Under the pieces are notes generated by a model, which saw only the letters and a list, made by a program, of their open reading frames with translations, did not search any database and was not told where the DNA came from. 64,000 nucleotides of DNA from Mytilus edulis. Lineage: Eukaryota. A program made the translations under genes and the position numbers. Shown here piece by piece: positions 649-36,007 of the stretch. Each line of letters starts with the position of its first letter. The stretch's first letter is position 1. The stretch is taken from positions 35,712,001 to 35,776,000 of the forward strand of contig NC_092346.1 of the NCBI RefSeq assembly GCF_963676685.1, given 5' to 3'.

Positions 649-2156
649 TTGTAATAGATTATTATTGAATTTGATGCTAATAGTTTCATCAATATTTTAA
701 GTGTAATTGTCTTATTTATTTTGATATTATACTTATTGACAAATTTTAATTAACTAGGGATTCATAAGAATTTGTTTGATACAATTTTTGTTGATTTTAT
801 GGTTAAACTCTCTTCTTGCATATCTTCTGTACAAGGACTGTCAAGGTATTTTAAGTCCTTTCTCTCTAGATGTTCCTCTTTATGGTGAAATAGCACTGAA
901 CATATGATCTTTGATTGTCTCTCAGATATATTTTGTTTTTAATTTTAGGAGTTAGTTTTGATAATTTTTTTATTGACAAAAGGTGGATCAAACTTGAGGG
1001 TTCTGAATAATTGACAAAGATTCAATAACAAGAACATCCTTAACATTTCTTTATAATATAAATGTTCAGCAAAAATTGCTGGTATTTTTCTAAAACCAAG
1101 AAAAATTTAATAGAAAATGAATTATTTCCAAAAAATTGTTGCAAAACTTAGGAGTATGTTTTTGTAAAGAAGATATTCATTTTTTTTTTTACAAAAATGG
1201 GGGGGGGGGGGGGTAATCTTTTGAAGCAAAACATATGTCCCTTCAAAGAATAAAATGTCAAAGTATATGAAATTTTAGGTAAATGTCTAAAAATTTCACC
1301 TCATTTATCTATAATTTAGCACATGAGTATATATTTTCATTACATGCTTGAATTAACAAGGAGAAAAAGTGTTGATGGCAAATTTTTGTAAAAAAAAATC
1401 GCTGTTGGATCAAAACTATTGTTTGGCTTTAAGAGAGTTGTACTTAATACTTATAATTGGAATAGGAAGCAGCTTAAAACAGTTTACTCCCTCAACAAAC
1501 CAATCACCTACATAGCCCATGCAAAGTAATTCAGATGAAAAGAGTTTCAATAGAACACAATCATTGTTAATGCCTATTGAGAATTGCAACATGATTATTC
1601 ATGGAATTAAAAAATACTAGGATTGTTATTTGCTTGGAAAGAAGAAACTATGCATAAGAGTATGCGACAAATTGATTCTACATAATTGTACTTTAACGAT
1701 CGTAACACAAGAAATTATTAAACTTTTCACAACATTTATTATTCATTATATCATGATGTTTATCATAAGCTTATGAATGTAGTATACAATGAATGTATAA
1801 GATAGGTAACTGCCAGGCAAGTGGGTAATAGTTCAATATTATTCTGATTAATATCAGAAGTAGATATTCCCTGCGGTATTTTCATATCACAATGTCAAAA
1901 TGACATACCTTTATTATATAATTTATGTAACTTAAGTGATGATGTGAACTGCCTTTTTCTTTCGGGCAATGTCATGCTTGAAAAGGGGCAATGCTAAAAT
2001 ATTTTAAGATTTTATCTTTATAACCTTAAGAGTGCCATTATATATACCTGAGCAAAAGTCATTCTGTTTATAATTGCATAGATAATTTCATGTCAGGAAT
2101 CCAAGACTTAATCTTTGGCTCTTATATAAGTGATGATTATCTGCTAGTTCTTCTGA

Positions 2157-8400: not shown

Positions 8401-10520
8401 TTCTAAAACACAAATGCAATTAGATTGACAGTAGTTATAATGAAAAAAATCACCAATACTGGCTTTATTGACCTATCTGGTTTAATTCTGAATTCAAAGA
8501 TCAATAAATCCTGCCAGCGGTAAATTGAATATTAATTTCCAATCATGAGAGATGAAAGGATGTTTTAACTGTCCCACAATTCCCAGGTTTATAACTAAAT
8601 AAATATAACTAGGAATAATAAAGTTTGTGAAGGAATCTAGTGAAAGGTGTATAAAATCAGTCATTTGTCTAATGATATTTTGATTAAGCTATTGTGATTC
8701 AAAGAGACTGATTAATGAAAACACTGTGATAGTTTATTTTATACATGGATTCTAACTTTGTTGTTATGGAAAAAAAAATCAGTTGTTTTGAGTTATTGTG
8801 AGTTCACTGTATACTGCAGGGAACATATCAAGTGAATAAAAGTAATATTTGGGTAATAAAATTAGTAATTTTGATTAAAAAAACAACTTAAAAATCTTCT
8901 GTGTTTAATAAGTACTCTATGATTGCCTTTTTTTCTCTATTTTTTTTTATAATTAAGCACACTGTTATTCTCAATTCCATAATTTTTAACCTATATTCTG
9001 AATATTTTTTTGTCCCATTGTTCTGCAGTAAACCCCACCCAGACCCTCTGCAAGATAACTTTTTTTGAATGATGAAAAAAGACATAAGAAAAATAAGTTT
9101 AATCTTATGTTGACTATGTAAGGTTTTCTTTTAAAGAAAGGGAACTGCGGTAAAATTTCCAAACAGTATGAAAAAAAATTGAAAGGTATATAGAGGTATA
9201 AAATGAGTTGCTTTCTGGCTTCTGAAATTATGTAAATTAAAAAAAACCATCAAACCTACTAAAATTATGCTAATTCTATTTATGAATTACTAGGCTAATA
9301 TAATCTAGATACTTTAGTTCAGAAATGTCACATGTGGTGTCACTTTTATGGCATAAAAATGTAGAAATTGACACTTTCTGTGACTAAAAATAGCCATTTT
9401 GTTCTTAGTTTTCCATAAAGTCAGAAGATAAGTGTTGGTTTAGCCCCCAGAAGATATTTTACCCTATTTGACAGATTTATAATGCCCGGTGATCTTAAAA
9501 TGCAAGAGGCAAAACAGAATCTTATAATACTCTCTTCTTTTTACAGTTTTAGTTAGATTTGGGTTGATAATGTTTTATTTTATGATTTTAACAGGAGAAA
9601 GGTATAGAAGCGGTAGAAGAGAAGGTCAGACAGATCATTGATGAGGATGTTCCGGTAAGTTAATCATAACAACTGAACATTTATTTCCGCATCCATCAAA
9701 AAAATGTTTCTACATTACACTTGTAGTTGTTCTAAGCCAGAATTTGATGCAATATTGCCTGTTACATTTCTTTTAATTTTATTAATTATTTTTGTTAATT
9801 TATATTTTCCATGGTTGAAGACATCATGTTGATATTTAGTGATATTTGGTTTTAACTTCCAGTTTATAAATTATGGTACCTTCAAAAACTAGTGTTGTAT
9901 GTTTTGTTCAAGACATTTTAGTTTTATGGTCACTCCATATTCAAATATGATTAAGCGAGTGGGGCATTGTTTCCTTTTTCATCTAGATTTAGTCTCAAAT
10001 ATTCAATATTTTTGGCTATCCAAGCTGTTGGTCTCTATTCACATATTGAAAGTATATTAGAAACCGCTTTTAAGCAAACATGAATCAGTGTCATACATTT
10101 TTATGCCCTGCATATCATAATGGGAATAATTAAGTTTTCTGCAGTGTGTTTATTCGTCTGTCCTATAAGAGATTAGTTTTGGCTCAAGGTAGTCTTCAGT
10201 GAAGTCTCAACAACTGGAAACTAAGTACACTCAATCATTTTGATGTGAACCTTTTTAAAATTATATGCTAAATCAGGTTTTTGACCAATATTTCAAAGTC
10301 ACTGAGCATTTAAATTTTTAGTGCAAGAGAGCATGGTGTCCTATTGACACATATTCTTTACTTATTTTTTTTCTTTTAGATGAATGAGTCACAGAAAGAA
10401 CAACTTTTGAAGATCTATCAAGAAACAGGAACCAAACGAGCTGTAGATACCAGATTCCTCAGTTTCTTAAGTTACAATTACTACCATCTGCCAATGTATG
10501 CTAAACCTGGAATGGTTTAG
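2468..10520 (+). CDS. CFAP61: Cilia- and flagella-associated protein 61, 3' part (last 7 coding exons; 5' exons outside window)
   Basis: AG/GT-bounded exons with consistent phases: 2468-2591, 5949-6025, 6359-6463, 7251-7354, 7735-7825, 9595-9654, 10380-10520 (TAG). Spliced protein LATEMLRLFDPTMEP...GGYNYLHIAKP...LYGLHERCLNNLVSRFNEGLIKDFYTYF...YHDRF...FLSYNYYHLPMYAKPGMV* matches the CFAP61 C-terminus as I recall it. Confidence 0.9.
5517..5846. mobile_element. MITE-like non-autonomous element with G/C-run termini
   Basis: Ends GGGGGGGTCTC / GAGACCCCCCC are inverted repeats; internal repeated tatat(c/g)aatggg motif. Confidence 0.6.
6515..6685 (+). repeat. Dispersed repeat family (other copies ~26390-26680, 31065-31152, 39870-40230)
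   Basis: Shared aaaaagaagatgtggtatgattg..aatgagacaact..cacaag..accaaatgacaca..aacaactataggtc. Confidence 0.75.
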
Positions 10521-11063
10521 GGGAGATAACTCTATTATGGTTTCTATACACACTTGAAAATTCATACTGTTTTTTCTCTCGGAGATATCTTTGAAATTTT
10601 CACTGAAGAGTTTACTTTATGAAGAAATTGTTAATTTCATACAATAAATGTGCTTTTCAAATGACTGTACATTAAAGCCTGCTATTGTAAAACCCGGAAT
10701 GGTTTAGGGGAGATAACTCTGTTATTATTTCTATTCATTTGAAAATTCATACTGTTTTTTCTCTCAATAATATATTTAAAATTTTTACTGAGAAGTATAC
10801 TTTATGAAGAAATTGTAAATCTCATACAATAAATGTGCTTTATAAATGACTGTACATAAAAACATGCTATTGTTAAACTAGGAATGGTTTATGGGAGGTA
10901 ATTCTGACTTGTTTCTATACACACTTGGAAATTCATACTGTTTTTTTTCTCTTAGTGATATTTTTGTTTTAATTTTCACTGAAAAGTATACTTTATGAAA
11001 CTGTAAATTTCATACAATGAATATGCTTTATAAATGACTGTACATAAACATATGCTATTGTTA
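10503..11063 (+). repeat. ~185-bp x3 tandem repeat covering the CFAP61 stop codon and 3' UTR
   Basis: aaacc(t/c)ggaatggttta(g/t)ggga... units at 10503, ~10690 and ~10874; the first two contain AATAAA. Confidence 0.85.
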
Positions 11064-11838: not shown

Positions 11839-14800
11839 TTATTCCCTTATATGAAGCTGTTTCACTTTCCCTTCCTCAATTTGGTCGAGATAGTTATACA
11901 TGTAGTCATCAGCGAAATGTAACACCTGTTGTAGGGTCAGTAGAGCTAAAATATTCACATTTTCATTCAGTTCCATCTCTGATTCATAATTCTTGATTGG
12001 TAAAATGTGTGACCTTGGAAGCCCCATTATCTGTGATACTCTATCTACAGTTTCCTGAATGACAGGACTGTAGAATACTTGGGATATATCCTCAGCTGTA
12101 GCCTCACACACTTTGTCTATCTTGGTAAGCAAAACTACTTGGGGAATTCCTGTAAAATTTAAAATAGTATTAGTTATATTTCTTTAAGGTCTAGAACATG
12201 CATACATTCCAATTTTTTTTGTTTGCATTGAATTTAGTATTTACAGAGGTGTTTACTTGTACGGATTGTCCGTATTTTACACGGATTTTTTAATAAAATT
12301 ACTCAATACGGATTTGTCATGAAAAAGTACGGATTTTCTACCAACCCGGAAAAAAATCATAATTGCTGCCGTTTACGGCGATTGGTATCTAAAAGGCGCT
12401 TTTCTGACCGGGAATCGCCACTCTTTAAAGCTCAAAATGATAGCGATCAAGTTTATTTCATGGTCGGTCTAAATCGCAGGAGGTAAGTTTTTTATTTTAT
12501 TTTCTATGTGTAGGCAGGAGATGTGAATGATCCATATCTCCCACATGTCTCTTATTTTCTTTCTAATGAAACCAAACTTTATTGGCCTGGGCATTTAGGG
12601 AGGGGGTAATGAAATGTTAAAATCCTAGGAGGGGTGCTGCCGAAATTTTTTTTAGGGTTGGACTTAGTTTTTGTGGGGGAGGGAGGTAGAAGGAGGTCTT
12701 GTACTGTAGTGTTTTGAAATGAAATATTCCAGACCTGCCTATTTGTCTGACAGAATTTGAATGAGATTTTAAATGTACATATCTTGTTTCTTTATAAGTA
12801 CACAGTGAATACCAGATTTGCATGTATTGACTTTTTTCAAACTTAAGCTCAACTTTTTTTCAAATCATGCAAATTTTAGGTTATAATCTTTGTTGCAAAA
12901 ATATCTGAATAAGACTGCAGATACTGTCAGAATGCAGGAAATTGCATCTAATTTTTCAAATTTTTTTTGAGGGGGCATGCCCCCAAACCCCCCTAGATGG
13001 TGAGTGCCGCTTCGCGGCACTCACCAAGAGTATTACTGACAACATTGCAACAACTACTGACAATACTACTGAGAGACATCATGTTGGGTAAACATGTCTG
13101 TATTTATAAACATTCATTTGCAACACCCAACATTAAAGTATGTTTTTATTTTGGTTTACCTTGCTCATCTTTTTCTACTTTGTGATGCAATGAAAGTTTG
13201 ATTTTGTGTTCACTTTGAAATGCTAGCACTCTTCTGTCTTTTTGAGAGACTTTTAAAAGAGGGACGAACTATACCAAAGGGACAGTCAAACTCGTAAATC
13301 TAAAACAAACTGACAACGCCATGGCTAAAAATGAAAAAGACAAACAAACAACAGCACACACGACACAACATAGAAAACTAAAGAATAAACAACACGAACC
13401 CAACCAAAAAACTAGGGGTGATCTCAGGTGCTCCGGAAGGGTAAGCAGATCCTGCTCCACATGTGGCACCCGTCGTGTTGCTTATGTGATAACAAATCCG
13501 GTAAATGGTCTAATTCGGTAGGTCACATTTGTAAAGGTGTAATTAGTTTGAGAATAGTTATATTAACAATTTGACCTGTTTTGTGCAACTCGTAGTAATG
13601 GCATATCCAACCGACCTCAGAAGACCATCAAAGTCACTCAAGACCTGTTGCTAAATATGATAAAGACTTGTATTCTATTTGGATATTACTTCAAGCATAC
13701 CAGATAACATAATTCCAACTACTTAGTCAATAAATGAATAGTGTCTTGACATAACTCTATCCTATATGATTTTATCACGAATTTTATTATCTTTCAACAT
13801 TATAGGTATTTTGCTATTTCTATATCAAATAGATTAACATGTTGAAGAAACATTATTTCAAACCTCTTTGATTCATACGCAGCTGTAGGTTTTTCATCCT
13901 CTCAATAACCTTCTCTGGAATAACATCAACAATGCTTCCGTCCAGTACAAATATGACACAGTGGATTTTGTCACTAAGACTAGGACTAACAACAAATCCT
14001 GGTGTATCTCCTGATATTGGTACTGAAGGATTAAACTGTGAAAAGAGATATAAGATACCAAAGGGGTTAAGGAAAATAATTAGTTCAATAAAGAAAACAT
14101 GGCATCAAATTTAAAATGACAAAAAGAGAAACGTTAATAAGAAAATATAACAACGAACAGAAATCAATAGATGAAGCAACATAGACCCAAACAACAAGCA
14201 GGAAGGAACTTAGGTGCAAGGGCATGTTGACAGCAGCACATATGACTGATTCCATAGTCTTTTCAAAGAAGTGAGTTGACAGTAATATTTTATATCAATG
14301 ATTATGTGATTTGGTTCTGAACTTACTTTTAGCTTCTTAGAACTGCTCAAAATAGTTAGATTTATTTCCCTGTAATATTCCATTAAATTGATACTTTCTC
14401 TCATTTATGTTATTCCTTGAAATGTATGCAAATCCTTTCTCAGACCTTTCAAAAAAACATTTACCAAAAAATCAGTTAAACAGTATGCAAAAAAACCCGA
14501 ATACAAACACAAATGAAAATTTTACAAAAAGACTACCAACTTAATTAAACGTTGTACATATGAGGGTATCGTCAACATGTGAGAGATAAGATAAGTCTTC
14601 AATACTCTTTTTATTAATAAAAAAAGCTTTCAAAATACCTGGTGTCTATCAGGTAAATTTCCATCAAGAAGGTAATTCATTTCATGAGAATCAATCCCTT
14701 GGTCAGCTTCAAGTCCTCTGGTGTCATGAAGTCTAAAATTCATTGGTGTCCCTGATTGCCCATTTCTGATTTGATACATTCGGTACTAAATAGAAATTGT

Positions 14801-16977
14801 AACAGTTAGATATAATGTTAAACATAGGTAACAAAATATTTACTTACTTGTAAATCAAACATCATCTTTGTACGAATAAAGTAAAATAATACAAATTGAC
14901 TTAATCATACAAGTGAGAGGTTTAGCTAGCTTTAAAAGCAATTTTAATCCACCATTTTCTACATTAGAAAATGTCTGTACCAAGTCAGGAATATGACAGT
15001 TGTTATCCATTCGTTTGATATGTGTGTTTGAGCTTTTGATTTTTGCATTTGATTATAGACTATGTGTTTTGAATTTTCCTTGGAGTTCAGTATTTTTGTG
15101 ATTCTACTTTTTATTAATACGTATAACCGATACAAGATTTTCATAAAGACCAATCTTTAACGAAAATACATCTTACCATGGTTGTTAAGCTGTGTTCTGC
15201 ATTGCCGCTGCAGGCCTGGCTGGTTATGTAACCTCGAAAGATCGAGTTAATGGTGTTAAAGAAACTAGATTTTCCCGCTCCCACTTGACCAACCAATAGA
15301 ATACGTGCCTGAGGAACTTTTAAATCCTTCAATGGCTTGTATTTTTCTACCTTTTCTTTCAATTCGTTTAGCAACTGAAATACATGTAATTACATTGGAA
15401 AGATAACTTCACAAGTACTGTGAACGCTATCCTACATTGATTGATTGTTGGTGTTTTAATATCACAACATATCCAAATTGGCACGTGTTAGGTGTACACG
15501 ACTGCACATTTACTAGGATTGTTAATTTTCTACCGAAGATCGGTGTTGTTCTCCGGGCATTACGGTTACCTCAAACATAAAATCTGACTGTCACGAAATA
15601 GCACACTCGATCATATCAAAGTTGTCAATTCAGATTTGTATACTGGTTTTATCATTCTCATTGTTTATCGGGCAAAGACTACATGAAATGCAATTATCTA
15701 TTTTCCAGGCCTTATTTCTACCTTTTAAAGAAAAATAGCATCGTGCATGTGAGGTGAACATTCTGTAGATCTTTATTTGAAACAGTACAAAATGATGTTG
15801 ATGAGTATACTCATGTTTTATTTATTTGATTGAAAGTTACATTATTGCAGTGCATGGTATATGCATATATTTTTTTATTGTGATACATGTGTTTAACTTC
15901 AATTACAAAATGTATGGACAACGTATAAATTATACACCAGTAATACGTCTGCCGAACAAAATTTCAATCCTGCTAACTATGAGTTGTTTAATAGTCATAT
16001 TGAATATCAGTCGTGCACCGAAACGTATATTATACAAAACAAGAAAAAAGAGAAGCAAAGAATCTTTGACATCGAATATTTTAAATCGTTATTTATTTTA
16101 GAAGCCGTTTTAGGCCAAATGATGTGTGTGATAATTGAGAATGAACAAAAGTGAAAACAACTACTTTTACTAACCTTGGGATTCCATTTTGCAGTCTTTC
16201 GCCATGGTTCGTCCAGTGGTGTCCCTCCACCTAGATCTAATGCAACAATGAAAATGATGATAATAACCCTAAATACCTTCATGGTGTTTGTAGTAAAACA
16301 AACAAATGCAGAAACATTTCTTTAAGATTTCAATGATGAATTTAATATTTGTTCTAGAAGCTAAAAGAGTTTTTCTAGATGAACCCAATAGATATCAAAA
16401 TTGACTAACTGAATTTTTTTATATCATTTGTTTTTATGTTTAAAAATCACAGTTTACCTTCTACCAAATAAACTTCAATGTCTTTTACTTTAAGATGACC
16501 ATTAGCAATAGAGTTGTAGTTTTCTCCATTCATAGTGTACGATACTCCAAAGCTGGCACCTCCATTCAGAGAAAAGTTTGTTCCATCGAAGTTTACTGTA
16601 TTCGAAAATGTTTGTAAATCATGCCCACCAAAGGTAGGTCCATAAGAAGCGTTATCGTATATGGCATTTTGTGCATTCATAACAGACATGCGCACTGGTT
16701 TCCAGTTACCATTCTGATAAAATCTAAAGAGGAAAGCTGAACCATCATTCTGATAGTTGCCAACACTTTTCCAATTGACTGCAGTATACCCACCATACAT
16801 AAAATTGTCTGCGTTATACAAAACTGTAACTGTTGGACCTTTATTGTTACATGTATTATGGAAAGCTGTGGAAGTACATCCATCTCGGGAAGCCTTATAC
16901 AAAAGTGTGTATTTCTTCCTCCCTCCAATCCATTTTGTGAGTTGATTTTGTTCTTTCTTTTTGAATTGGATAGTCAT
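11839..16977 (-). CDS. IFI44L: Interferon-induced protein 44-like (TLDc domain + P-loop GTPase-like domain), copy 1, intact
   Basis: Exons 16977-16458 (TLDc: LLYKASRDG, FHNTCNNKGPT, GGYT, YGPTFG, DIEVY), 16236-16175 (linker, EPWRK), 15374-15177 (RILLVGQVGAGKSSFFNTINS Walker A), 14785-14639 (LHDTRGLE), 14035-13864 (IHCVIFVLDG), 12149-11839 (GIPQVVLLTKIDK..KNYESE). All GT-AG, phases 1/0/0/0/1 are compatible. Confidence 0.92.
12244..13100. mobile_element. Non-autonomous DNA transposon (CAG termini) in last IFI44L-1 intron
   Basis: Imperfect TIR cagaggtgtttac / gtaaacatgtctg, flanked on both sides by tattta. Confidence 0.55.
13256..13530 (-). mobile_element. ~275-bp 3'-terminal fragment of the Penelope-like element at 61154-63170
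   Basis: Reverse complement matches ~62910-63168 (ccacatgtggagcaggatctgc...tttgactgtc..tttggta..gtccctctt). Confidence 0.8.
14905..15112 (+). repeat. Dispersed repeat family (other copies ~19620-19795, 20650-20840, 40795-40990, 51600-51715, 52150-52440, 54415-54585, 56655-56880)
   Basis: Shared core ccaccattttctaca..aaatg.ctgtaccaagtcaggaatatgacagttg in both orientations. Confidence 0.8.
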
Positions 16978-17297
16978 ATTGATGGCTGTAAAAGGAGAAG
17001 TGTTTAGATGTTTTTGATCAATATAAATAGTGTGACAATTTTCATGTTCTACTTGTACATTAATTTATTTTAAACAAATAATTCTTTTGGTCGTAGGCAA
17101 AATGTAATAGTTAGCCTTTTCACAATTTTAAAAGAACAATTGACTTTAAATTATCATTATTTTTTAAGTTTATATTTCTTTATACTATAAAATTTGGCGA
17201 CATATTTGTAAATCAACTTACCTTATTGTTATTTGTAAATTGAATAGTTTTTAATGAAGGTAAATAGTTATCAAAAGTACCAGGATTATAATTTAAT

Positions 17298-17341
17298 ACG
17301 CCAGACGCGCGTTTCGTCTACATAAGACTCATCAGTGACGC
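17298..17341 (-). ncRNA. Minimal type-I hammerhead ribozyme
   Basis: Minus strand: GCGUCA-CUGAUGA-GUC(UUAUGUA)GAC-GAAA-CGCGCG-UC^UGGCGU. Intact core, stem I, 3-bp stem II and palindromic stem III. Confidence 0.88.
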
Positions 17342-17653
17342 TCAGATCAAAACAGTTAAAAAGCCAAACAAATACAAAGTTGAAGAGCATTGAGGACCCA
17401 AAATTTCAAAAAGTTGTGCCAAATACGACTAAGGTAATCTACTCCTGGGCGTAAGAAAATCCTAAGATTTTCGAAAAATTAAAAGTTTTGTAAACAGAAA
17501 ATTTATAAAAATGACCATATAATTGATATTCATGTCAACACCGAAGTGCTGACTACTGGGCTGGTGATACCCTCGGGGACGAAACATCCACCAGCAGTAG
17601 CATCGACCCAGTGGTGTAAATAGTTATCAAAAGTACCAGGATTATAATTTAAT

Positions 17654-17697
17654 ACGCCAGACGGGCGTTTCGTCTACATAAGACTCATCAGTGACGC
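17654..17697 (-). ncRNA. Minimal type-I hammerhead ribozyme (second copy)
   Basis: Same intact core; stem III reads CGCCCG instead of CGCGCG. Confidence 0.82.
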
Positions 17698-18710
17698 TTA
17701 GTAAAAGGTACTTGAGATTAGCATGGTTAAGTGAAGTGGTCATAAAATTCAGATAAACGACAAGTTAAAGTAGTGTGGTACCTAAAAAAGAAATAGCTAT
17801 TCTTAGTCGTTCCAAAAAGATAACGTTTTAGTTTTATTGTAGGAAAGGTATTAAGAAAGATTAACAGAAAACGGAAGCCCAATGTACCAGTCTTATAATT
17901 TATCACCTAAACAAGTTTCAAAATAGTTGGAAGATCGAACTGAGTACGACATAATATTTTTTTACGTCTGACGAATCGTCTACATTGGACTATTCAGTGG
18001 AGCTTGAATAAAATATGAAGTTGAAAAGCACGAACACCACATTTAAAAAAAAAGACTTTGGGTCAGGTCATACTTTATAAAAAACAGAAAAAATTAAATT
18101 TTTAACGATATGAAATACAATGTTTTTACGATAAACCTGGTGTGTTGACAATAAACGCAAATCTCTTGTACGTTATCATTGAAAGTTTATAACTTTATTG
18201 GTATAACATGTAATAAATATTTGTGTCTATGAACTTTATTGTTGGACATGTTCTTAACTGTTATTAAAACAAATTGTGTAATAAAATTGAGAATGGAAAT
18301 GGGGAATGTGTAAAAGAGACAACAACCCGACCAAAGAGCACACAACAGCAAAAGGTCACCATCAGGTCTTCAATGCAGCGAGAAATACCCGCACCCGGAG
18401 GCGTCCTTCAGCTGGCCCCTAAACAAATATATATTTACCAGTTCGGCGATAATGAACGCCATACTAAACTCCAAGTATGTATTAAGTATTCAAGATCATT
18501 GTTAAACGTAAGGATAAACATGCACATGTCAATGAAAACAGGTCACGTGTTTAAATAGAATAGATGAATCACTTTAAAAAAACAAATCTAAAAATGGACA
18601 CATTTATTTTAAACTAATTACAATAAGTTTACAAAAAATGATATAAAATTCTTTAAAATGAAAGATACGCATCTGAACATGTACAATGTTTTAGAAAATC
18701 TGTTGACATT

Positions 18711-18860
18711 TAACTTACCGTTATTGTCGATCTGAAACACACAGACGTATTGATTTAGTTATTCAGTATTACATCAATCTGTATTTTCCAATTTTTAACC
18801 ACAATGTTATTTTCAGAAAATCAAAAGGGAAAGTAGAAGGAAATATATATTCCTTTCCAT
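18711..18860 (-). promoter_or_regulatory. Putative 5' non-coding exon and promoter of IFI44L-1
   Basis: Donor ACG|GTAAGT at 18719/18718 is conserved in copy 2 (52878/52877). The adjacent GAAA-rich block is also conserved (18817-18860 vs 52976-53020). The TLDc exon has an acceptor 8 nt before its ATG, so an upstream exon is required. Confidence 0.55.
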
Positions 18861-19424
18861 CAGTTAATTTACATGTTCTACCAAACTGCAATTATTTATA
18901 TTTTCTAAAAATGATAAACAACAAGAGGACAGTAACGTAGTATAAAATTCAAAATGTAGAGATCTATAGATTCACAAATTTAAGTATAACATGTATTAAT
19001 GGTCTTAGTATAAAATAGTAAACAATAATACATAATTAATTTCATTATGTAAGGACATGTATTGAGTATGATTAAAGAATTTCATAAATATATAATACAA
19101 ATAGATTTGTTCTGGCCACATGATAGTGTAATAAAAAGAAGTACTAAGACAAATTCTTAACCCCGAGGTAAAATAAAAAGGGGAAATCCATAAAAGCTGA
19201 CAAAACCGAATTGTTTCTTGTATAACTTATTTGTTGTGATTTTCAGACATAAACATTTACGAAATTCGAACAGCCGGTTATTGAACTAACTTTCAAATAT
19301 ACATATGAAGCTATACATGAGAAACTGCAGTTTTTGTCGTAAAACACCGTAGTTGACGGCCTTGTTGTTGTGTGCAATGTTTAAATTCAAGTCAGTCATG
19401 CTTTTTCAAACACAACTATGAATA

Positions 19425-19562
19425 ATTAGTTATAAACGGTTCCAGGCTTATAATTTAATACGCCAGACGCGCGTTTCGTCTACATAAGTTACATCAGTGA
19501 CGCTCAGATCAAAAAAGTTAGAAGGCCAAAGGAGTATAAAGTTGACGAGCATTGATGACCAA
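19425..19562 (-). repeat. Truncated retrozyme-family copy, hammerhead core damaged
   Basis: acgccagacgcgcgtttcgtctacataagttacatcagtgacgc; the core reads CUGAUGU. Confidence 0.75.
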
Positions 19563-21772
19563 AATAAAAAAAAAATGTTTGATGAGTATGCACGGCGAGA
19601 TGCACGGTATCTATCAACACAAAATTAAGATAACACAAATACTGAGCTCTAAGAAAAATTCAAAACGGAAAGTCCCTAGCAAATAACAAAATCAAATGCT
19701 GAAACGGATGCAACGATTGACAAACAACTGTCATATTCCAGACTTGGTTTCTTCATGTAGAAAATGATGGATTAAATCTTGTTTTAAAGCTAGCAAGTAT
19801 AATAACCAAATACAATGACTTAGAAATTTGAGGCAATACTTTTCAGTGGGGATCAGATCTCATAAATCCATGTTGAATACTGGCATACAAACGAAGTAAA
19901 ACAGCGCGAATATCATATACATGTACTGTATAATATCTAACTTGGAAGTATCCACACAGTTTTATATTGGTCTAAAAAAAAGGCTCTGAACTTATCTATC
20001 CATATCAATAATATATATATATATATGATAAACGGAATACTTTATATTAGTAAAAATCAGCTGAAAAGAATTGTATTTTGCAATAAGAAAAACAAATCGC
20101 CTTTTAAAAACATACTAATACGATAGTGTATAATTAGTACGCTATAGAATTTTAATTTTGTTATTTTCTTATCTAGTCAAATCAAGCATGGAACTTTAGT
20201 TGCGTATTTAACATTTTTATTATAATCATCTTTTGTATTTTATTCCAAAATTTTGTGTTCCTTTTTTTTAAATATACGCGCTTGAAACACTGATTATCTC
20301 AGACCACGTGACAGTGTTGATATATGTAACGAGAGAAAATGACACTGCAATATATAGCTTTTCCCAAGTGAAAATCTGTGGGTAGGTACCTATTTCTTGG
20401 CATGCTTATTTCATTTATTTAGAAGCATCAAATATCGCTGATCTAGTATCCTATTTTTCTAATTATACAATATTATCACTGCGTAAAGTTTTGTATTCTA
20501 CTTCCTTATTTGGATTAATCAATATATTCTGGCTGGTATTGAGTTTATTATTTTCCGTCAATATCGTTAAAAAAACAAACATGAGAAATATGGTATAGTG
20601 ATTAATAATAAATTGTGATTAAGATTTATAATACAAATTCTTAATGCTTTATTCCAATTTTTGACATTTTCACATATTATGTCTATTTGTTTTGTTCACA
20701 CATCGTTGTTAATATTATGGAATTGTATGCAACTGTCATAAAAGTTAGACGGTTAGTTAGCTAAAACCCAGATTTAATTTACCATTTTCTACATTAGCCA
20801 ATGTCCTGTAACAAGTCAGGAATATGGCAGTTGTGTTCTATTGGTGATGGCGATTCTGTTTCTTGCACATCGGTTTTCCTGTTTTTTGGTTTTTTTCTCT
20901 TACAGTTGATGTGTTTCACGCGGTTTTGGTTTGTAGCCCAGATTTTTTTTTTAAATTGATTTATAACTTTTGAACACCGGTAAACTACTGTTGCCTTTAT
21001 TACATGGTTCAGAGCCGTTCTGTTCGAGTAACATCAGATGGTGATATAACACCAATAATGCAAATGGATTTTGCATACCTTCGACTAAAAGCTAAATGGT
21101 TTAGTTAGATTTCGTAAAATATATTGAAATAGATTAACCAAATCCGTTTATACAGAACAGTGTCTATTATATATAAGTATTTCTAGTCAGACATTGATAA
21201 ACAGGAAATACTTATAGAATATTATAATGCTATTGCCAAATATATTTATATATGTTATACACATGATACAATAGTTTTACAATTTTTTACAGGATTTAAT
21301 TTGTAGAAATTAATGAAACACTGAAAATTTTCCAAAACAAAAAAAGTTGAAGCATTTGAAAACCTTAATGTAATTTGTTACAACAAACGTTAATGAAACG
21401 TGACTAAAAAGATTATCAATATTGAAAGATGTAATTTGTTTTAAAATATACTGAACAAATTGATTTCTTCACTTTGTCGGGTTCAAATACCTTTTATCCA
21501 TACAATTAACAAAACTGAATAATTAAGAAGTAAGCACCCATTCGTATAAGTCAATGAAAAAAGCATTTTATAATTTCGAAACTGCAAAGTGCTTCTCTGG
21601 ATTTGCCTTCAAAACTCATTCCTATCATAAGAAAGTCAGTGGTGTATAATAAGTAGGAACTTATATATTTAAACTCATTAATATTGTAATTACCTGCAAT
21701 TCCACATGAACAGATAAAAATAAAAGTAACTTTAGATTTCTTTTCTTTTTCAATTGCCAGATGTATTAAGAA

Positions 21773-23443
21773 ATGGCTTCGTCAATTCCATGTGGACCCT
21801 GTAATCATGATAGCGTAAACAAGAATGCAGAGAAATGGTGCACCGATTGCAACGAAGGGTTTTGTAATGGATGCGAAAAGGCACATAAATCAATGAAAAT
21901 GTCGAGGGACCATAATTTGATCCTCATTGAAGACTACCGCGTAATTGAAAATATGAATATTGTCTCAGAATGCCAGGATCACGGGTCAAAACTTGAGATG
22001 TATTGCAAAATACATGAAATGGCTATTTGTATTACATGCTTTCCCGCAAAGCATAAGGATTGTTCCGATGCCATCATTCCTCTTACCGAAGCTTCGAGAG
22101 ATGCGAAAACATCGACTTCTTTTACGGACTTGGAACATACTATTAACGACACATTGGAAAACATAGAAATATGTCTTCAGGATCGCGAAGCAGCTGAAGA
22201 ACGAATTGAAAAGCAAGAAATGGCAATAAAGAAAATTATCTCCAATACGCGTGAAAATATAACAAAACATCTTGATAATCTGGAAAGAAAATTATTCAAT
22301 GAGTTGTCAACAACATATTCATCTTGTAAGTCAAAATATGGAACGTTAAAGAACCAACTAAATAGACTTGAAAAGGAAATTAAACGCCTCAAGGGACAAA
22401 CAACTAATCTAAAACGGTTTGCCCCCGACCTACACGTATTCCTGAGTACACAGCAGATGACTAAAGAGGTACACGAAGAAGTAAATGTGATTAAAGAAGC
22501 CATACGATCCGTTAGAAATTATGATATAGAAATTGAAATACACCAGGGGATTACTTCATTGCTAAAAGATGTCGACTGCTTTGCAAGGATTAAAGTGGAC
22601 GAAAGTACCATCAGCTGTCCTTTTAAGGAAACAAAGATTGATCAAGCCCAAATACAAGTACAAACTAGAAAATCAGTTCATGATACAAGACTACAATTGA
22701 AAAAGAAGTTCACAATTAAGCAAACAGGAAATAAAATGTACATTTCAGGATGTATTATTTTGGCAAATGGGAACTTTTTGATTGCAGACTACGAAGGACT
22801 GAATAAATTATTGGAGTATAACGAAGACGGAAATTTTATCCGTGATATACAACTTTCTGCAAAGCCATATAATCTGACAACAATAGAAACTGATCAAATA
22901 GCAGTTTCTTACTCCACTCTATCCTACATCGAGGTTATAGATATAAAGCAAATGATCGTTCTAAAAAAAGTGAAATTCAAAAACAGTTGTTTGGGAATAT
23001 CATACAGTGAAGGAAAGATTTTTGTTGTAGTGAATAATGAAGGAATTGTGGTCTTGGATATCGAAGGAACTATGCTTAATACAGTCAAGTGTACGCCTGG
23101 TGTTTATAATATAACAACGTGCAAAACCAGAATATACTACACACAATTAAAACCGAGCACGATTTACTGTTGCAGTAGAACTGGAGAGGAAATATGGAAT
23201 TTCAATGATAATTCATTTGGATTTAGTGGAATTTCTACTGATCGTGATCAGAATGTTTTTGTAGTAGGTAATAAAATTAATAATCTTATGGTGCTACAAG
23301 ATGACGGGAAAGAAAGCAAAATCTTACTTAGTCGATCCGAAGGACTAGAAAAACCCTCACGTTTATGCTACAACAAGGAAAAGAACACCTTACTAGTGTG
23401 CAACTCCATTAATGGAAATGTGTTTTTATACAGTGTTATTTAG
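21773..23443 (+). CDS. RING-less TRIM-like protein (B-box1, B-box2, coiled coil, NHL-like beta-propeller), intact single coding exon
   Basis: 556-aa ORF: CGPC..AEKWCTDCNEGFCNGCEKAH..H, CQDH..MYCKIH..ICITC..H, heptad-rich middle, propeller repeats (NGNFLIADY, GISTDRDQNVFV). Splice acceptor at ~21760. Confidence 0.9.
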   Translation: MASSIPCGPCNHDSVNKNAEKWCTDCNEGFCNGCEKAHKSMKMSRDHNLILIEDYRVIENMNIVSECQDHGSKLEMYCKIHEMAICITCFPAKHKDCSDAIIPLTEASRDAKTSTSFTDLEHTINDTLENIEICLQDREAAEERIEKQEMAIKKIISNTRENITKHLDNLERKLFNELSTTYSSCKSKYGTLKNQLNRLEKEIKRLKGQTTNLKRFAPDLHVFLSTQQMTKEVHEEVNVIKEAIRSVRNYDIEIEIHQGITSLLKDVDCFARIKVDESTISCPFKETKIDQAQIQVQTRKSVHDTRLQLKKKFTIKQTGNKMYISGCIILANGNFLIADYEGLNKLLEYNEDGNFIRDIQLSAKPYNLTTIETDQIAVSYSTLSYIEVIDIKQMIVLKKVKFKNSCLGISYSEGKIFVVVNNEGIVVLDIEGTMLNTVKCTPGVYNITTCKTRIYYTQLKPSTIYCCSRTGEEIWNFNDNSFGFSGISTDRDQNVFVVGNKINNLMVLQDDGKESKILLSRSEGLEKPSRLCYNKEKNTLLVCNSINGNVFLYSVI

Positions 23444-25461
23444 TTTGAATGCTTTTTGTTTAGAGTCAGTATTGACAGTGTAGAGATATATTTGCTCGTA
23501 CAAACTTTTAATACATTTTATCTTTCTTATAGTTTTATATAATACTGATTCAGATTAATGCTTATGGAAATATAACTCTTCAGCGTCAACTAAATGTTCA
23601 AACGGCGGAGCACAAAAACTGTTTTGGTCCTTCCATGAATGGAACTATACAATATAAATATTATTTAACAGAGGATTTACATTGAAATTATCTGCATTAG
23701 GAATTAAATTTGAGATAAGATTTTAATGACAAAGTTAAAGCTTCAGTTTTTAGAATTTGAAAGAGTTTATCATTAGCAGACACTTGTGAAAAGAATTTCA
23801 AATTAGCTGTATTTTTCCATGGCTGCATGCATTACTTTTGTTTGTTTTTACATGTACCTTCATAATTGTTGACCTTTTAAAGTCGTCAATTACTAACAAG
23901 ATTTGATGTAACTGTTTACAACTTAGAAGTAGAAAAAGACCGATATGAAAAAAAGAAACACAACAATAATTTTTTGAGGTCTTAGTTCATGTAATTTGTG
24001 TATGTTTTTATAATATAATGTTCGTCTTTTTGATATGTTTGAAAACAATAATAATAATGTATGTTATATGAAAGGAAATTTGAGTATTTTTTAACAACTG
24101 AACCAATTTATCAATTATTATTCATATATTTCAATGATAACGAATTATGCCTGTGTAAATAAACTCATCATAGATATGTACATAATATTGAATAGAAATT
24201 TTATATTGTATTGGTTCAAGTACTCAGGTTTTGTTATAAACAATGAAGTTAGTTTTGGCAATGTATATAAACTCATCATAGTTACCAGGTTTAATCTTTT
24301 ATACGCCAGATGCGCTTTTCACGATGTCAGTCATTTTTTTCATTGGTTGGGCATTTATATTTAGCCAGTGCGACAGCGAGGGGTGAAATACGAATATAAA
24401 TGCCCAACCCATGGTTAAATGAAAACGAATCTACGGCTGCCATGTATTATTTCGATTCTAATAGTACAAATTCGGTAATTTTGTTAACCGTGAAACACTA
24501 GATACTGGTTTGGCTGTTCCGTTTTACCCCAATATGATACTATTAGTAATATTATATTCATGTAATTCAATAATACCTTTTTTTTTAAATCGCATTTTTC
24601 ACTTATACTTATGTTCTTTTAATGTAACTTCTGTGGATTCTGAGGCGTACAAGAAGCTTAAAAAACCCCGGGTGTTTTATTTTTGATTTACGGTAACATA
24701 CATATGACGTCACTTTATTTCGTTGCCATGCAAAGACGATAACATTTCCAAGAATGTTTTTGTAGGGAAATTTACCATGAAAAATAAATTGAAATGGACT
24801 ACTTTGTTTATTTTGTTTTCGAATAGATATAACAAAATTGTATCTGATTCTTGGCTTGCGTAAACTGTTAGTGTTGATGTCGAAAATTGAGAATACCTGG
24901 TAATATTTTTTAAGTTGGGCGTAATGCAGAGCAGCACGTTTTGTGTATTTATGCGCTTGCGCTAAAATAAGATAGACTGTGATTATACTGATTGATGATA
25001 AAAGGTCGTCATATCAGAATACTGTTTAACTTATCATTTAGGTATCAAAAACTCAAAGTCATTTATCATATTAATTGATTTGGATTTGTCGTCAAATATT
25101 ATAAAAAGTTACAGCTATTACATTAATGCTAGCAAGACAAAACTTTGTTTGGCTTGCTTGCTTTGCTTGTATCAATGTTTGCTCAAGCATGACAATTAAG
25201 ATAGGCGGGGCTTCAGCTTGTATACATCATACTTAAATCTTATTGGACATTACGTTTGAGGTTAAGGACACTAAATTTTAAAACATCACATGACTAATAT
25301 TATTATCACATGTTTCCTTACCTGTAAAAACAATTTGATGTAACAATAAGTGAGGTAATTCGATGATTGATATATCATGGTATTAAATGTGAACCTGTAC
25401 CAATCACACCGATTTTTTTGCTGTTTTATTAAAAAAAATAGTTTACTTTAATATATTCATT

Positions 25462-29448: not shown

Positions 29449-30617
29449 TTAGTCACTTTCATCATCAGCATCACAATCAGTGTCGAAGCTCTCTATGCCG
29501 GTAGCACATTTCAAAGCTGCATCAGCAAGAAGATCCATAGACGACTTGGGATGTGTGTGGACTGGTGCTGAAGGTTCCCTTTTTACGGAAATATCGTTCC
29601 CAAAAACACTTGTAGGTGCCGGTGACGTCGGAGTACTAGTATGTGTGCTCATAGATTGAAATGGCGGTGGATATTGCCACGGATAACTTGGGAAATATGG
29701 CATCATTTGCGGATAAAATTGCTGAAATGGAAATCTCATCTGATGAATGACAGGAAACTTTTTGTCATCTTCATCTGCTTCATCTTCAACTTTTCTTTTA
29801 GTTGTAAAACAAGGGCGTACTTCCTTGGATCTATTTGCCATTTCGTCCAGTTTGTCTTTAAAATCTACATAATCGTTGCCGCGATCTTCAGGTACAACTC
29901 CATTATATCCTATCTTGAGACTGTGAAGGTCTTTCATTAGTTTTGCTCCGTCTTGATATTTTGTTGGGTTTGTCTGTCTCAGTCTGCTCCTCATTGAGGA
30001 CATAAAATCTGTTTTCTTTACACCCATGAAGGATTCAAGTTGGTTTTTTCTTCGTCAAGCTTTCGGATCTTTTGCTTTAGCTGCAAAATTTCTCTCTGTT
30101 TAGTTTTCTTTTCTTGCAGATACTCGGGATGCTTGTCTGCTTGGCCACATAGGTGAATGCTGGCACAGGGATAGTTGGTACAAGATTTGTTGTTCTTATT
30201 ATTGTCGGCTTTGTGCCCAGTTTTGTGGCAGTTGGTGCACCTCCTTCCATCCTTTTCCCTCTCAGAAAGAATAATTGTAGAGTATTCTGCCTCTGCCAAG
30301 GTTAACTTTCTCTGAATCTTTTTCACTGATTCTTTTGAGGACTCAACAATGTTGTTTAAACTTGGTTTCTGAAGCCCCATTTGAGAGTTATTCGGTGAAA
30401 TGTCCTTCAAATTTTTTAAGGCATTTTGCAGTTGCCTTCTTCTCCCAAGTAACAGTTGAATATTGGCTTGCTGGAACATTTGGTTTAGGTCTTCATCAAC
30501 ATCAATGCACCTCAAACTTCCAATTGTGTCAAAACCATTGCTTCGAAATACACTTGCAAACTCGGTAAATCCACTCCCTATTTGCATTAAAAATTCCTCG
30601 ACACTTAAATCATCCAT
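29449..30617 (-). CDS. Transposon passenger ORF2: SAM-like domain, coiled coil, CCHC-type zinc knuckle and Pro/acidic tail; one frameshift at ~30045
   Basis: ATG at 30617. SVEEFLMQIG..FTEFASVFRSNGFDTIGSLRCID..LGRRRQLQNALKNL resembles a SAM domain. CTNCHKTGH..C..YPCASIHLCGQADKH is the Cys/His region. Adding one A to the A6 run joins both ORFs (EEKNQLESFMGVKK). Confidence 0.7.
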
Positions 30618-31842
30618 TTTCAAGAAATTATTTGAAATCTAAAAACAATGTGCCTCAAAGCATGGGAAAATGTTATTTTACGTTTTAGCCAATGAAAACA
30701 CCTTTAAGAGTAAATATACTGAACAAAAGTAGAAACACAAGACTTTTTTCGTCATGATTGGTTTAGTATTAGTTGATTTAAGTCCAGTTGCAAATATTTC
30801 ATGCACGTGTCAGATGGTTACACCTTGTTATTTTATTGAAAGAACTTTCATACAACCGAAAATATTGTTTGCGTTAATTATCATCTTTCCCTCTAGTTTT
30901 GCTAAGACGACTGATGTAATGCCGAGCCCTGCAAGTTTAATACGCGAAATGAGAAATATCGATTGGAGATCCTGTCGGCGGTGTCGGCCACGGCGACAAC
31001 GGCCTTGGCGGCGCCGTCAACATTTAGAGGTTCAGTCTATGTCTAAAAGTTTTTTTTATATAAAAATGAAGATGTAGCATGATTGTCAATTAGACAACTC
31101 ACCACAAGTGACCAAAAATTGACACAGAAATTTACAACTACAGGTCACTGTACATTACTAACTTTGTCAAATCTTCATGGAATTTACATAATTAATGAAC
31201 AGAGGTTTGATTATGACAAAAGAATACAGCATCCAGAGCAAAATTAAAAAAATATGTTATTTTTTTGTATCCATTTTATATATATTGATAAATGGAGTAA
31301 GTGTTTTGGTAAAAAATATGCAGATTTGGTTTCGGGTTAAGGCTATTTTAGACACGAATAACTTGTGCCAGCCTTTGTGTACTATTATGAAATTTGAACA
31401 CAATAAAATTGAGAATTGAAATGAGGAATGTTCCAAAGAAAACATCAAACCCACCAAAGAGCAGACAACAGCGAAAGGCCACCATTTGGTCTTTAGCGCA
31501 GCTCAAGAAATTCATACACTCGGAGTTGGGCTTCGGCTGTCCCCTACAGACTTAGGACGGACACAAAAGTGCGACAGGGTTAAACATGTTTTTTTTTAAT
31601 TTATTTTTTTATTTTTTATCTCAACCCTCCCCGATGCCTTTAGCCAATATTGAAAATCAGTTCAAAGAGGTCCGAAGTTGATGTCAGAATAGGTAACAAA
31701 AGATACTAAATTAAATCAGGAACATATATATTGAAGTTAGATATACTGTTCTCAGATTAAATGACAATTGTACATAAATAAACAAAGGACTACTAGCAGT
31801 TACTGACATGCCAGCTCCAGATCCATGACTCTGAAGAAAAAA

Positions 31843-31980: not shown

Positions 31981-32671
31981 CTTTTTTTTCTTTTTTTTTT
32001 TAAATAAACTAAATTGACAAGCATCTCCATATTTGGTTTGAAAATGAACGTTATTAAATGTAATCTTTAATTAATCTGTACACATTCGGCAATGCATAAA
32101 CGATGCATGCCTAATGAAAAACAAAAACATAAAATGGCTGAAATATAATTGACAAGCACTAAAGAATGACGGTTTCAATCTTGACATTTTTAATATTAAA
32201 CTATCTGATTTCTTTCTACTATTCAGTATACTTTTGAAAAAAATACTTTTGTGTTGATAAATGTTTTAGCCAATCAAAAAAGGGCTATACCAAACAATAG
32301 AAGTTAGTTGTTTCATTTGCAGCATTAACTCATGCCATGGACTTGGCCAGTACCCAAGTTACATTTATCAACGGAGGGTAACAAAGGGGTGTATATCTAA
32401 ACCATATTATATAAGTATATATATATATATACAAGCTGTATAAGTGTATGTAATTTTAGAACTGTCTTCGGTGATGATGTATACTAATCCATACTATATA
32501 AGTTTTTCTTAAAATCAGTATTTCCATTATAAATTTGTCATGAAGATATGGAGAAATATACTAAATTGCACCTCTGAAGTTTTTAATACAGCAAGTTATA
32601 CCTGTATATCAATCAAGCAAAATCAAATTCAAAAAGTTTATTATTACATTAAAGTGAAATAAAAGTTAGAA

Positions 32672-33706
32672 ATGAAGAGGTCAAAGGCTGGACGTTTTTA
32701 CCAATCTGGAAAAAAACTACAAATTGAATTAAGACGTGCAATTGTAGATCAATATGGAGAAGGGAAAAATGTTTATACTATTGCTAATGAAACTAACTTA
32801 GATACAAGAACAGTTAAGAAAACGTTAGAAGAATACATGTCGACAGGTGACTTAGACTATTCAGGAAAAGCTCACGGTTCAAAAACGCGTATCGCAAATG
32901 AAACAGTAATACTTGCTATAGAATATTATTTACACCTAAAACCATCAATGTATCTACAGGAAATTCAAAAAAGGTTATTATCTGATGGGATCTGTCTCCA
33001 AAATAATGTTCCAAGTGTTTCGTACATTCACAAGATTATAAAAGATAGATTAGGATATACACGGAAAAAGCTTACTGTGAAAGCCAAAGAAGGATTGACA
33101 GACCAAGTTCAAGTAAAATTTGACCATTTTTTGGATAGTATTGAGGACATTAATCCATTAAAAATTCATTGCTTTGACGAATCGTCCGTCATTATGACAA
33201 CAGGTAACAGACATTACGGTTACTCGGAATTAGGCCAAAGAGCTTTCGAAATTCAAAAGTATGCTTCAAATGCAACCTTTACTGTAAATCTTCTCCAAAG
33301 TCCATTAGGTGTAGATTACTTTAATATTATAGATGGACCTTCAAATGGATTACAACTAGTTAACTTTTTTGTCGAAGCCTTAAATGAAACGGATATCTAT
33401 GGGAATAGTAAACTTAGTCCGGGAGATGTAATTGTACTGGACAATTGTGGTTTCCATCATGGTCAATTAGCAGAAACACATTTACGAAACTTGCTACAAC
33501 AATATGGAATAACACTGGCATTCCTCCCACCTTATCACCCTGAACTTAACACATGTGAACACAGTTTTTCAAAAATGAAATATTATCTCAGACGACATGA
33601 AACTTATACTACGATGTATCCTGAACTAGCAATTTGTGACGCTATAAATGAAATATCAAGAAACGAATGTTTTGGATTTGTCAAGCATTGTGGATATATA
33701 CTTTGA
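32672..33706 (+). CDS. IS630/Tc1/mariner-family transposase, paired-like HTH + DD38E, intact
   Basis: 344 aa. N-terminus GRFYQSGKKLQIELRRAIV is paired-like. Catalytic motifs CFDES, VLDNCGFH and FLPPYHPELNTCE, with 38 residues between the second D and E. Confidence 0.92.
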   Translation: MKRSKAGRFYQSGKKLQIELRRAIVDQYGEGKNVYTIANETNLDTRTVKKTLEEYMSTGDLDYSGKAHGSKTRIANETVILAIEYYLHLKPSMYLQEIQKRLLSDGICLQNNVPSVSYIHKIIKDRLGYTRKKLTVKAKEGLTDQVQVKFDHFLDSIEDINPLKIHCFDESSVIMTTGNRHYGYSELGQRAFEIQKYASNATFTVNLLQSPLGVDYFNIIDGPSNGLQLVNFFVEALNETDIYGNSKLSPGDVIVLDNCGFHHGQLAETHLRNLLQQYGITLAFLPPYHPELNTCEHSFSKMKYYLRRHETYTTMYPELAICDAINEISRNECFGFVKHCGYIL

Positions 33707-35654: not shown

Positions 35655-35698
35655 GCGTCACTGATGAGTCTTTTGTAGACGAAACGCGCGTCTGGCGT
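35655..35698 (+). ncRNA. Minimal type-I hammerhead ribozyme in a retrozyme-family fragment (~35560-35740)
   Basis: GCGTCA-CTGATGA-GTC(TTTTGTA)GAC-GAAA-CGCGCG-TC-TGGCGT. Confidence 0.85.
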
Positions 35699-36007
35699 AT
35701 ATACTAAATTTAGTTCTGGTATCTATGATGAGTTTATTTACTTTGGTTGCCTTATTGGGACAATACAAATGCCTGTGTAAAACTAGTTCTAATTTCCCGT
35801 TTTTATGAGACAAAAATAAATGATGAGAGTGTATATCATTTCATTATCAGTCTGACACTAGAATTTAGTTTCACCAAAAATTATTGATTTATTAGTTCAT
35901 TATCCAAATAAATTCAAAAGATTAATATCACCAAATATAATTAATAATTCCACGGAGATCCATTTGTAATTGTCACCACCTTGAATATGTAATTTAAATT
36001 TGTGTAT

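What the first reader, a model, noticed from the sequence alone, without database searches (positions are those of the whole stretch)
17260..17698. Tandem hammerhead (retrozyme) unit in sense orientation inside a predicted intron of an IFI44L immune gene
Seen: two intact hammerhead cores on the minus strand, with predicted GUC cleavage at 17304/17303 and 17660/17659, i.e. a 356-nt monomer. They lie between the conserved donor at 18719 and the TLDc exon acceptor at 16985, on the transcribed strand. Known: minimal type-I hammerheads with palindromic stem III work as dimers, and metazoan retrozyme repeats yield small circular RNAs. Inference: IFI44L-1 transcription could cut its own pre-mRNA and release a 356-nt circle, linking circRNA output or transcript attenuation to immune induction. 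No equivalent pair is visible in the corresponding intron of copy 2, which gives a natural control.
Basis: partly seen in the sequence, partly recalled or inferred. Interest (0 to 1): 0.75.

Follow-up and report, generated by a model that had tools for sequence, protein, structure and literature searches.

The report
Self-cutting retrozyme inside mussel immune exon
A copy of a known, very common mussel mobile repeat with two self-cutting RNA motifs sits in a non-coding exon of an immune-type gene in this genome but is missing from other mussels, and it likely just destroys that one transcript form in carriers rather than acting as an evolved immune switch.

Summary
The two minus-strand hammerhead cores, cut sites (17660/17659, 17304/17303) and 356-nt spacing are exactly as described. 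They belong to the published Mytilus non-LTR retrozyme family: 11,714 exact cores in this genome. In one RNA run, 111 molecules end at the predicted cut (family-level evidence).

Three corrections. (1) The element is a polymorphic insertion with a 5-bp target duplication: two DNA samples and one RNA sample carry the empty site. (2) It is not simply intronic. It interrupts an alternatively included 5'UTR exon (17781-17222) of an intact 469-aa TLDc/IFI44L gene; one sample includes the exon, another skips it. (3) Coupling circle output to immunity is implausible: retrozyme RNA is about 790 deep in a run where the gene's TLDc exon has zero depth. The CGCCCG variant is not locus-specific (62 copies) and breaks the palindrome.

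Best reading: a selfish insertion that likely knocks down the exon-2 isoform in carriers, by cutting off the cap and adding nine upstream ATGs. No RNA from a known carrier was seen. Family-wide, most arrays end about 41 nt past the cut site with random 5' ends, like Penelope elements.

The parts
17265..17700 (-). Retrozyme insertion, 436 bp plus one target repeat; 1.24 units, 5'-truncated just before the first core
   Evidence: empty site in DNA contigs of X15 and X16
17701..17705 (-). Target-site repeat, upstream copy (5 bp)
   Evidence: sequence; empty-site contigs join 17701 to 17259
17260..17264 (-). Target-site repeat, downstream copy; equals the element's own sequence at this point (microhomology)
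17654..17697 (-). Hammerhead 1 (type I), intact core, cut 17660/17659; loop III variant at 17664 breaks the palindrome
   Evidence: read ends pile up at 17659 in X21, family level
17298..17341 (-). Hammerhead 2 (type I), family-typical, cut 17304/17303
17304..17659 (-). 356-nt cut-to-cut monomer, potential circle
   Evidence: circularisation inferred from PMC7229834
17260..17303 (-). About 41-44-nt 3' tail, the fixed end of most family insertions
17222..17781 (-). Alternatively included 5'UTR exon 2: 119 nt empty, 560 nt filled. Donor use is shown; the acceptor is inferred
   Evidence: joint 17222-16985 and cover ending at the AG at 17783-17782 in X1
18719..18780 (-). 3' part of non-coding exon 1; 5' end not mapped, upper coordinate approximate
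   Evidence: joint 18719-16985 in X2; conserved in copy 2
16458..16985 (-). IFI44L-1 exon 3, ATG at 16977, TLDc domain
   Evidence: Pfam TLD E 8e-22; joints
11839..16236 (-). Remaining coding exons (16236-16175, 15374-15177 with P-loop, 14785-14639, 14035-13864, 12149-11839); whole ORF 469 aa, intact
   Evidence: RNA joints; translation

Best explanation
This is a polymorphic insertion of the known mussel non-LTR retrozyme into an optional 5'UTR exon of an IFI44L-like gene, and it likely acts as an accidental knock-down of the exon-including transcript in carriers. Shown: family membership, target duplication, empty allele in other animals, use of the exon-2 donor in an empty allele, exon skipping in another sample, and family-level cleavage at the predicted base. 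Inferred origin: a Penelope-type enzyme copied a circular (or uncut multimeric) retrozyme RNA from a fixed site about 41 nt past the cut, went 1.24 turns and stopped. Inferred effect: if carriers still include exon 2, hammerhead 2 (published rate about 0.1/min, half-life about 7 min) would cut the mature mRNA 319+ nt of pre-mRNA upstream of the coding exon and remove the cap; nine added upstream ATGs would also lower translation. In the skipping isoform the element is intronic and would do much less. A 356-nt circle needs both cuts and would be a negligible share of the pool.
For: 11,714 exact cores; 128 scored places, most 91-99% identical. Empty site on single DNA contigs in 2 of 3 DNA-type runs laid (X15 record 9, X16 record 16), and in X1 RNA; X18 record 30 runs 27 nt into the element. 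Flanks are single-copy in G000. Exon 2 spliced in X1, skipped in X2. 111 molecules end at 17659 at depth 467 in X21. 34 of 40 arrays end at +39 to +49, with 5' ends spread from 9 to 351; 33 of 40 less biased loci also stop after the last core. ATGs in exon 2 rise from 2 to 11. UTR ribozymes knock down more than intronic ones (PMC11856399 passages).
Against: No RNA from a known carrier was seen, so cleavage, exon-2 inclusion and knock-down of the filled allele are untested. The exon 1 to exon 2 joint was not displayed; exon 2 rests on contigs of one run. ViennaRNA puts the active folds 6.6-9.3 kcal/mol above the minimum, though typical copies are similar (medians 6.7-8.0, 30 pairs). 8 of 9 Xenopus dimers did not cut in vitro (preprint). 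X18's overlap is below the tool's 31-letter bridging rule. Intragenic copies nearby are broken on both strands (3 of 3 sense, 3 of 3 antisense), so no selection signal. The mobilising enzyme was not identified.
Confidence: 0.7

Rival explanations
1. The insertion is functionally silent. Carriers skip exon 2 anyway or the ribozymes misfold in this context, and splicing outruns a slow intronic ribozyme.
For: X2 shows a skipping isoform. Predicted active-fold probability is near 0, and hammerhead 1 has a competing fold (-12.7 vs -6.7 kcal/mol). Natural-type ribozymes in an intron gave under 3-fold knock-down. 42-44% of Xenopus copies are tolerated in introns. The ORF is intact and three paralogues lie nearby.
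Against: X1 lists the exon-2 joint and no 18719-16985 joint. Hammerhead 2 is family-typical, and the family is cut in vivo. The added ATGs act without cleavage.
Confidence: 0.22
2. One reading: the pair is a co-opted device that links IFI44L induction to circRNA output or to attenuation of the immune transcript.
For: Sense orientation and two intact cores. An IFI44 gene is induced by Vibrio in mussels (PMC6401078 passages; not shown to be this copy). Retrozymes are thought to rely on read-through transcription (PMC7761336 passage).
Against: Absent from other individuals. About 1,300 comparable tandem pairs, extrapolated from 12 of 84 loci in 12.3 Mb. Retrozyme depth about 790 against 0 on the TLDc exon in X21, and about 200 against 3-5 in X24. 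None of the three paralogues has an intact sense core within its coding span. The upstream palindrome is broken.
Confidence: 0.05
3. Exon 2 is an alternative first exon with its own start near 17780, or the empty form is a secondary deletion.
For: The 18719-17781 joint was not displayed, and contigs cannot show RNA starts.
Against: X1 cover stops at a pyrimidine tract plus AG, with none at 17820-18003. X1 covers the exon-1 bin. A single target repeat at the empty site fits insertion, not deletion. The element would be exonic and sense either way.
Confidence: 0.08

Closest known systems
Mytilus galloprovincialis non-LTR retrozyme (Cervera and de la Pena 2020, PMC7229834; parts 2-4 of 6 read, supplement unreadable)
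   Same: Type I hammerheads in ~350-390-bp tandem repeats, thousands of copies, low GC, target duplication over 4 bp, abundant RNA.
   Different: The paper treats the family, not single loci. Here one copy has an empty allele and lies in a host 5'UTR exon. I could not align to the paper's sequences.
Penelope-like elements (PMC11167929 and PMC8557442, passages read; preprint 10.64898/2026.07.22.740005, parts 1-3 of 5 read)
   Same: Fixed 3' end with a 30-40-bp tail from internal initiation, AT-rich targets, 5' truncation, partial tandems, type I hammerhead.
   Different: No ORF; non-autonomous. The partner element was not found: the window's RT fragment family showed no shared terminus that I could establish.
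Host-gene ribozymes: SmPoMuc intronic hammerheads (PMC2576457, passages); mammalian 3'UTR and amniote intronic hammerheads (mentioned in PMC7761336, passage); CPEB3 ribozyme (search listing and abstract start only)
   Same: Self-cleaving motif on the sense strand of a host gene, proposed to affect transcript processing.
   Different: Those are shared by all gene copies or conserved across species; this one is missing from other individuals and from paralogues.
Engineered UTR or intronic hammerhead knock-down (PMC11856399, passages)
   Same: A cis-cleaving ribozyme in a transcript lowers mRNA, more so in UTRs than in introns.
   Different: Natural, slow (published about 0.1/min for the family), unregulated, effect unmeasured.

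Membership tests
Metazoan non-LTR retrozyme | Type I hammerhead with intact core in each unit | tested here: met
   Both cores intact, three stems present
Metazoan non-LTR retrozyme | Tandem units of 150-450 bp (350-390 in mussel), many copies | tested here: met
   356 nt; arrays up to 13 units; 11,714 cores
Metazoan non-LTR retrozyme | No protein-coding ORF | tested here: met
   No ORF of 70 aa or more within 17260-17700
Metazoan non-LTR retrozyme | Mobile, with target duplication over 4 bp when present | tested here: met
   5-bp repeat and empty allele
Metazoan non-LTR retrozyme | Self-cleavage at the predicted base | tested here: inconclusive
   Family level: 111 molecules end at 17659. This copy: not separable; almost all reads carry the other base at 17599 (650 of 652, 141 of 145)
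Metazoan non-LTR retrozyme | Circular RNA formed from this copy | not testable with these tools
   A circle junction reads the same as a tandem genomic junction; no carrier RNA
Minimal dimer-dependent hammerheads of Penelope elements | No usable stem III; needs a palindromic dimer | tested here: not met
   2-bp stem III with 4-nt loop; family cuts as one copy; hetero-duplex -7.0 vs -13.3 kcal/mol
Penelope-type mobilisation | Fixed 3' tail, variable 5' truncation, AT-rich target | tested here: met
   34 of 40 end at +39 to +49; 33 of 40 stop after the last core
Penelope-type mobilisation | Autonomous partner sharing the terminus | tested here: inconclusive
   Penelope-type RT abundant (type recalled from motifs, no Pfam hit); retrozyme pieces in 2 of 12 RT loci, no consistent link
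Domesticated host-gene ribozyme | Fixed in the species or conserved in orthologues and paralogues | tested here: not met
   Empty in X1, X15, X16; no intact sense core in paralogue coding spans
IFI44/IFI44L-like gene | N-terminal TLDc plus P-loop domain; homology to named members | tested here: met
   TLD E 8e-22, weak P-loop hits below cut-offs; 82-83% to 469-aa Mytilus proteins named IFI44-like
IFI44/IFI44L-like gene | Immune inducibility of this copy | not tested
   Only literature on an unspecified mussel IFI44

The most novel reading that the evidence does not exclude
A segregating natural ribozyme OFF allele: the insertion removes the cap from exon-2 IFI44L mRNA in carriers and shifts output to the skipping isoform. 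With thousands of young copies, retrozyme insertions would be a general, unrecognised source of cis knock-down alleles in mussel immune genes, and each filled/empty pair would be a ready in vivo test of natural hammerhead activity.
Probability: 0.35. Interest if true: 0.55.

Novelty: new member of a known kind. Interest (0 to 1): 0.33.

Why it matters
The element family is published, and intronic copies are ordinary. What adds value is the filled/empty allele pair in a 5'UTR exon: exonic copies were only 0.24-0.32% in Xenopus and mostly 3'UTR. It allows a direct test of whether a natural retrozyme cuts a host mRNA in vivo. The fixed 3' tail and random 5' ends support Penelope-driven copying from a fixed internal site. 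I did not see either point in the texts read (searches), but the supplements of PMC7229834 and of the preprint were not seen and may show the ends.

Tried and rejected
Rfam scan: 0 matches at gathering score; TRF did not list the 1.24-unit repeat. Run search: no RNA holder listed on record; X1 and X2 are guessed RNA, accepted here because they show GT-AG joints. Paralogue origin of the empty site: both flanks match only this locus in G000, though that search can miss sequence. CGCCCG as a locus marker: rejected, 62 copies; better markers are 17464, 17599, 17428 and 17586 combined with 17664. Copy 2 as control: rejected. Selection against sense copies: no signal, both strands broken. Folding models do not separate active from inactive copies. 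Link to the window's RT family: not found. X18 has no listed cover at 17176-17221, so its right junction is unseen. Earlier scan notes: none returned. Supplement of PMC7229834 could not be read.

Full report
OBSERVATION. The minus strand has two type I hammerhead cores starting at 17691 and 17335. Predicted cuts are at 17660/17659 and 17304/17303, 356 nt apart. Each has a 6-bp stem I, a 4-bp stem II and a 2-bp stem III capped by 4 nt. The downstream core has the family's palindromic stem III. The upstream one has a substitution at 17664 that breaks it (duplex -7.0 against -13.3 kcal/mol).

WHAT THE ELEMENT IS. The genome holds 11,714 exact copies of the 32-nt core (reversed control 0) and 62 of the CGCCCG variant. 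A DNA search gave 128 places from 40 scored of 5,847 candidates, many in tandem arrays. Among the first 100 listed cores, 12 of 84 loci have two or more cores at unit spacing, which extrapolates to about 1,300 such arrays. The host protein's best named matches are Mytilus proteins. The element fits the M. galloprovincialis non-LTR retrozyme of PMC7229834 (parts 2-4 of 6 read): about 5,000 hammerheads, 350-390-bp repeats, cleavage at about 0.1/min from a single copy, abundant circles. I could not compare sequences, as the supplement was unreadable. In RNA run X21, 111 molecules end at 17659 where depth is 467, and first-mate strand bias is 666 to 125. This fits in vivo cleavage at the predicted base, but for the family only: at 17599, 650 of 652 and 141 of 145 reads carry the other base.

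THE HOST GENE. RNA joints define six coding exons that translate to an intact 469-aa protein. It has a TLDc domain (E 8e-22) and a P-loop with only weak Pfam hits, and the TLDc exon is 82-83% identical to 469-aa Mytilus proteins named IFI44-like. Four copies lie in tandem, two with their TLDc exons beyond the window. Inducibility of this copy was not tested. One paper reports a mussel IFI44 induced by Vibrio (PMC6401078, passages).

NOT SIMPLY INTRONIC. Run X1 instead splices 17222 to 16985 and lists no 18719-16985 joint. X1 cover resumes at 17728-17782, stops at a pyrimidine tract plus AG, and is zero at 17820-18003. I infer an optional UTR exon 17781-17222. The joint from 18719 to 17781 was not displayed, both runs are contigs from one study, and contigs cannot show RNA starts.

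POLYMORPHIC INSERTION. X1's spliced contig continues past 17264 directly into the flank upstream of the element (loose end). Single DNA contigs of X15 (record 9, 1,324 nt) and X16 (record 16, 1,061 nt) join 17701 to 17259; both are from one study. The empty site keeps one copy of a 5-bp sequence found at 17705-17701 and 17264-17260. X18 record 30 runs from unique flank 27 nt into the element, a hint of a second carrier haplotype, below the tool's 31-letter rule. Both flanks are single-copy in G000. So 3 of the 4 runs laid show the empty site and 1 hints at the filled one. X2, X21 and X24 could not be genotyped.

HOW IT GOT THERE (inferred). Of 40 loci from the best hits, including this one, 34 end at +39 to +49 after the cut site, while 5' ends spread from position 9 to 351 of the unit. 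Two loci were cut by my fetch limits and one pair is duplicated. For a less biased set I fetched 40 of the first 45 loci listed, leaving out five closely spaced ones. Of these, 33 do not continue into another unit; by eye most stop at about +40 to +45, four break earlier, one goes on inverted, and two share flanks. This matches the 30-40-bp tail, AT-rich targets and internal initiation of Penelope-like elements (PMC11167929, PMC8557442, passages). A 2026 preprint argues that animal retrozymes derive from them (parts 1-3 of 5). One insertion spanning two cut sites implies a circular or uncut multimeric template. The partner element was not identified.

WHAT IT LIKELY DOES (inferred). With exon 2 included, both ribozymes stay in the mature mRNA. 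A rate of 0.1/min means a half-life of about 7 min (my calculation), short against mRNA lifetimes (own knowledge), so a cut at 17304/17303 would separate the cap from the ORF. The insert also raises upstream ATGs from 2 to 11 and uncouples a 30-codon upstream ORF whose stop overlaps the main ATG in the empty form. With exon 2 skipped, the ribozymes must race splicing. Non-optimised hammerheads in an intron gave under 3-fold loss in zebrafish, and UTR placement is said to be stronger (PMC11856399, passages). Against this: no carrier RNA was seen. Active folds are predicted 8.1 (core 1), 6.6 (core 2) and 9.3 (dimer) kcal/mol above the minimum, versus medians of 7.7, 8.0 and 6.7 in 30 natural pairs, so the model does not discriminate. 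In the preprint, 8 of 9 Xenopus dimers did not cut.

IMMUNE-COUPLED CIRCLE. In X21 the repeat is about 790 deep while the TLDc exon bins are 0; in X24 it is about 200 against 3-5. These runs carry a different organism label from X1, X15 and X16. The pool is thus fed by other loci, and one polymorphic copy could add little. Of 17 hammerhead-like sites in 114 kb, 5 have intact cores: these two and three intergenic ones. The six within paralogue coding spans are broken, 3 sense and 3 antisense, which shows neither conservation nor strand-specific selection.

COMPARISON AND VERDICT. It is a member of the metazoan non-LTR retrozymes on every feature testable here. It is not a minimal dimer-dependent hammerhead and not a domesticated host ribozyme. 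It would work like an engineered UTR ribozyme knock-down. Intronic copies are common (42-44% in Xenopus) and exonic ones rare (0.24-0.32%). I saw no report of a filled/empty retrozyme allele in a host 5'UTR in searches; unseen supplements and subscription papers may hold one. New member of a known kind; interest 0.33.

Noticed in passing
window 63980-64622 (partly beyond the window, L059): A second, older tandem retrozyme on the sense strand in the last intron of IFI44L copy 3; both cores are broken.
   Followed up: partly
window 19418-19573, 24275-24320, 35545-35744, 38145-38432, 43660-43913, 47658-47886, 54873-55059: Further retrozyme fragments; intact cores only at 35661 and 55020.
   Followed up: partly
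window 55118-55160: A different hammerhead variant with an intact core, 100 nt from the copy at 55020; possibly the second mussel family.
   Followed up: no
window 17743-16974 (empty allele): A 30-codon upstream ORF starting in exon 2 whose stop overlaps the main IFI44L start codon.
   Followed up: partly
window 16950-18719, run X2: A second exon-1 joint with 35 other letters between, perhaps a diverged allele or paralogue.
   Followed up: no
window 17050, runs X15 and X16: The empty haplotype has a 27-nt insertion in the intron before exon 3 relative to the window.
   Followed up: no
window 61157-62909: Broken reverse-transcriptase fragment of a very abundant family, 50,990 candidates; Penelope/Naiad type by recalled motifs, no Pfam hit.
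   Followed up: partly
window 32663-33706: Uninterrupted 347-aa ORF with PAX-like and DDE_3 domains, a Tc1/mariner-type transposase.
   Followed up: no
window 21770-23443 and 58996-60559: Two single-exon B-box, coiled-coil, beta-propeller ORFs upstream of IFI44L copies 1 and 2; the second is frameshifted.
   Followed up: no
window 29449-30638: Two adjacent ~200-aa minus-strand ORFs with no Pfam match.
   Followed up: no
window 12998-13026: A 29-nt near-perfect GC-rich palindrome in the last IFI44L-1 intron.
   Followed up: no
window 267-650, 10503-11061, 37343-37962: Tandem arrays of 87, 185 and 147 bp.
   Followed up: no
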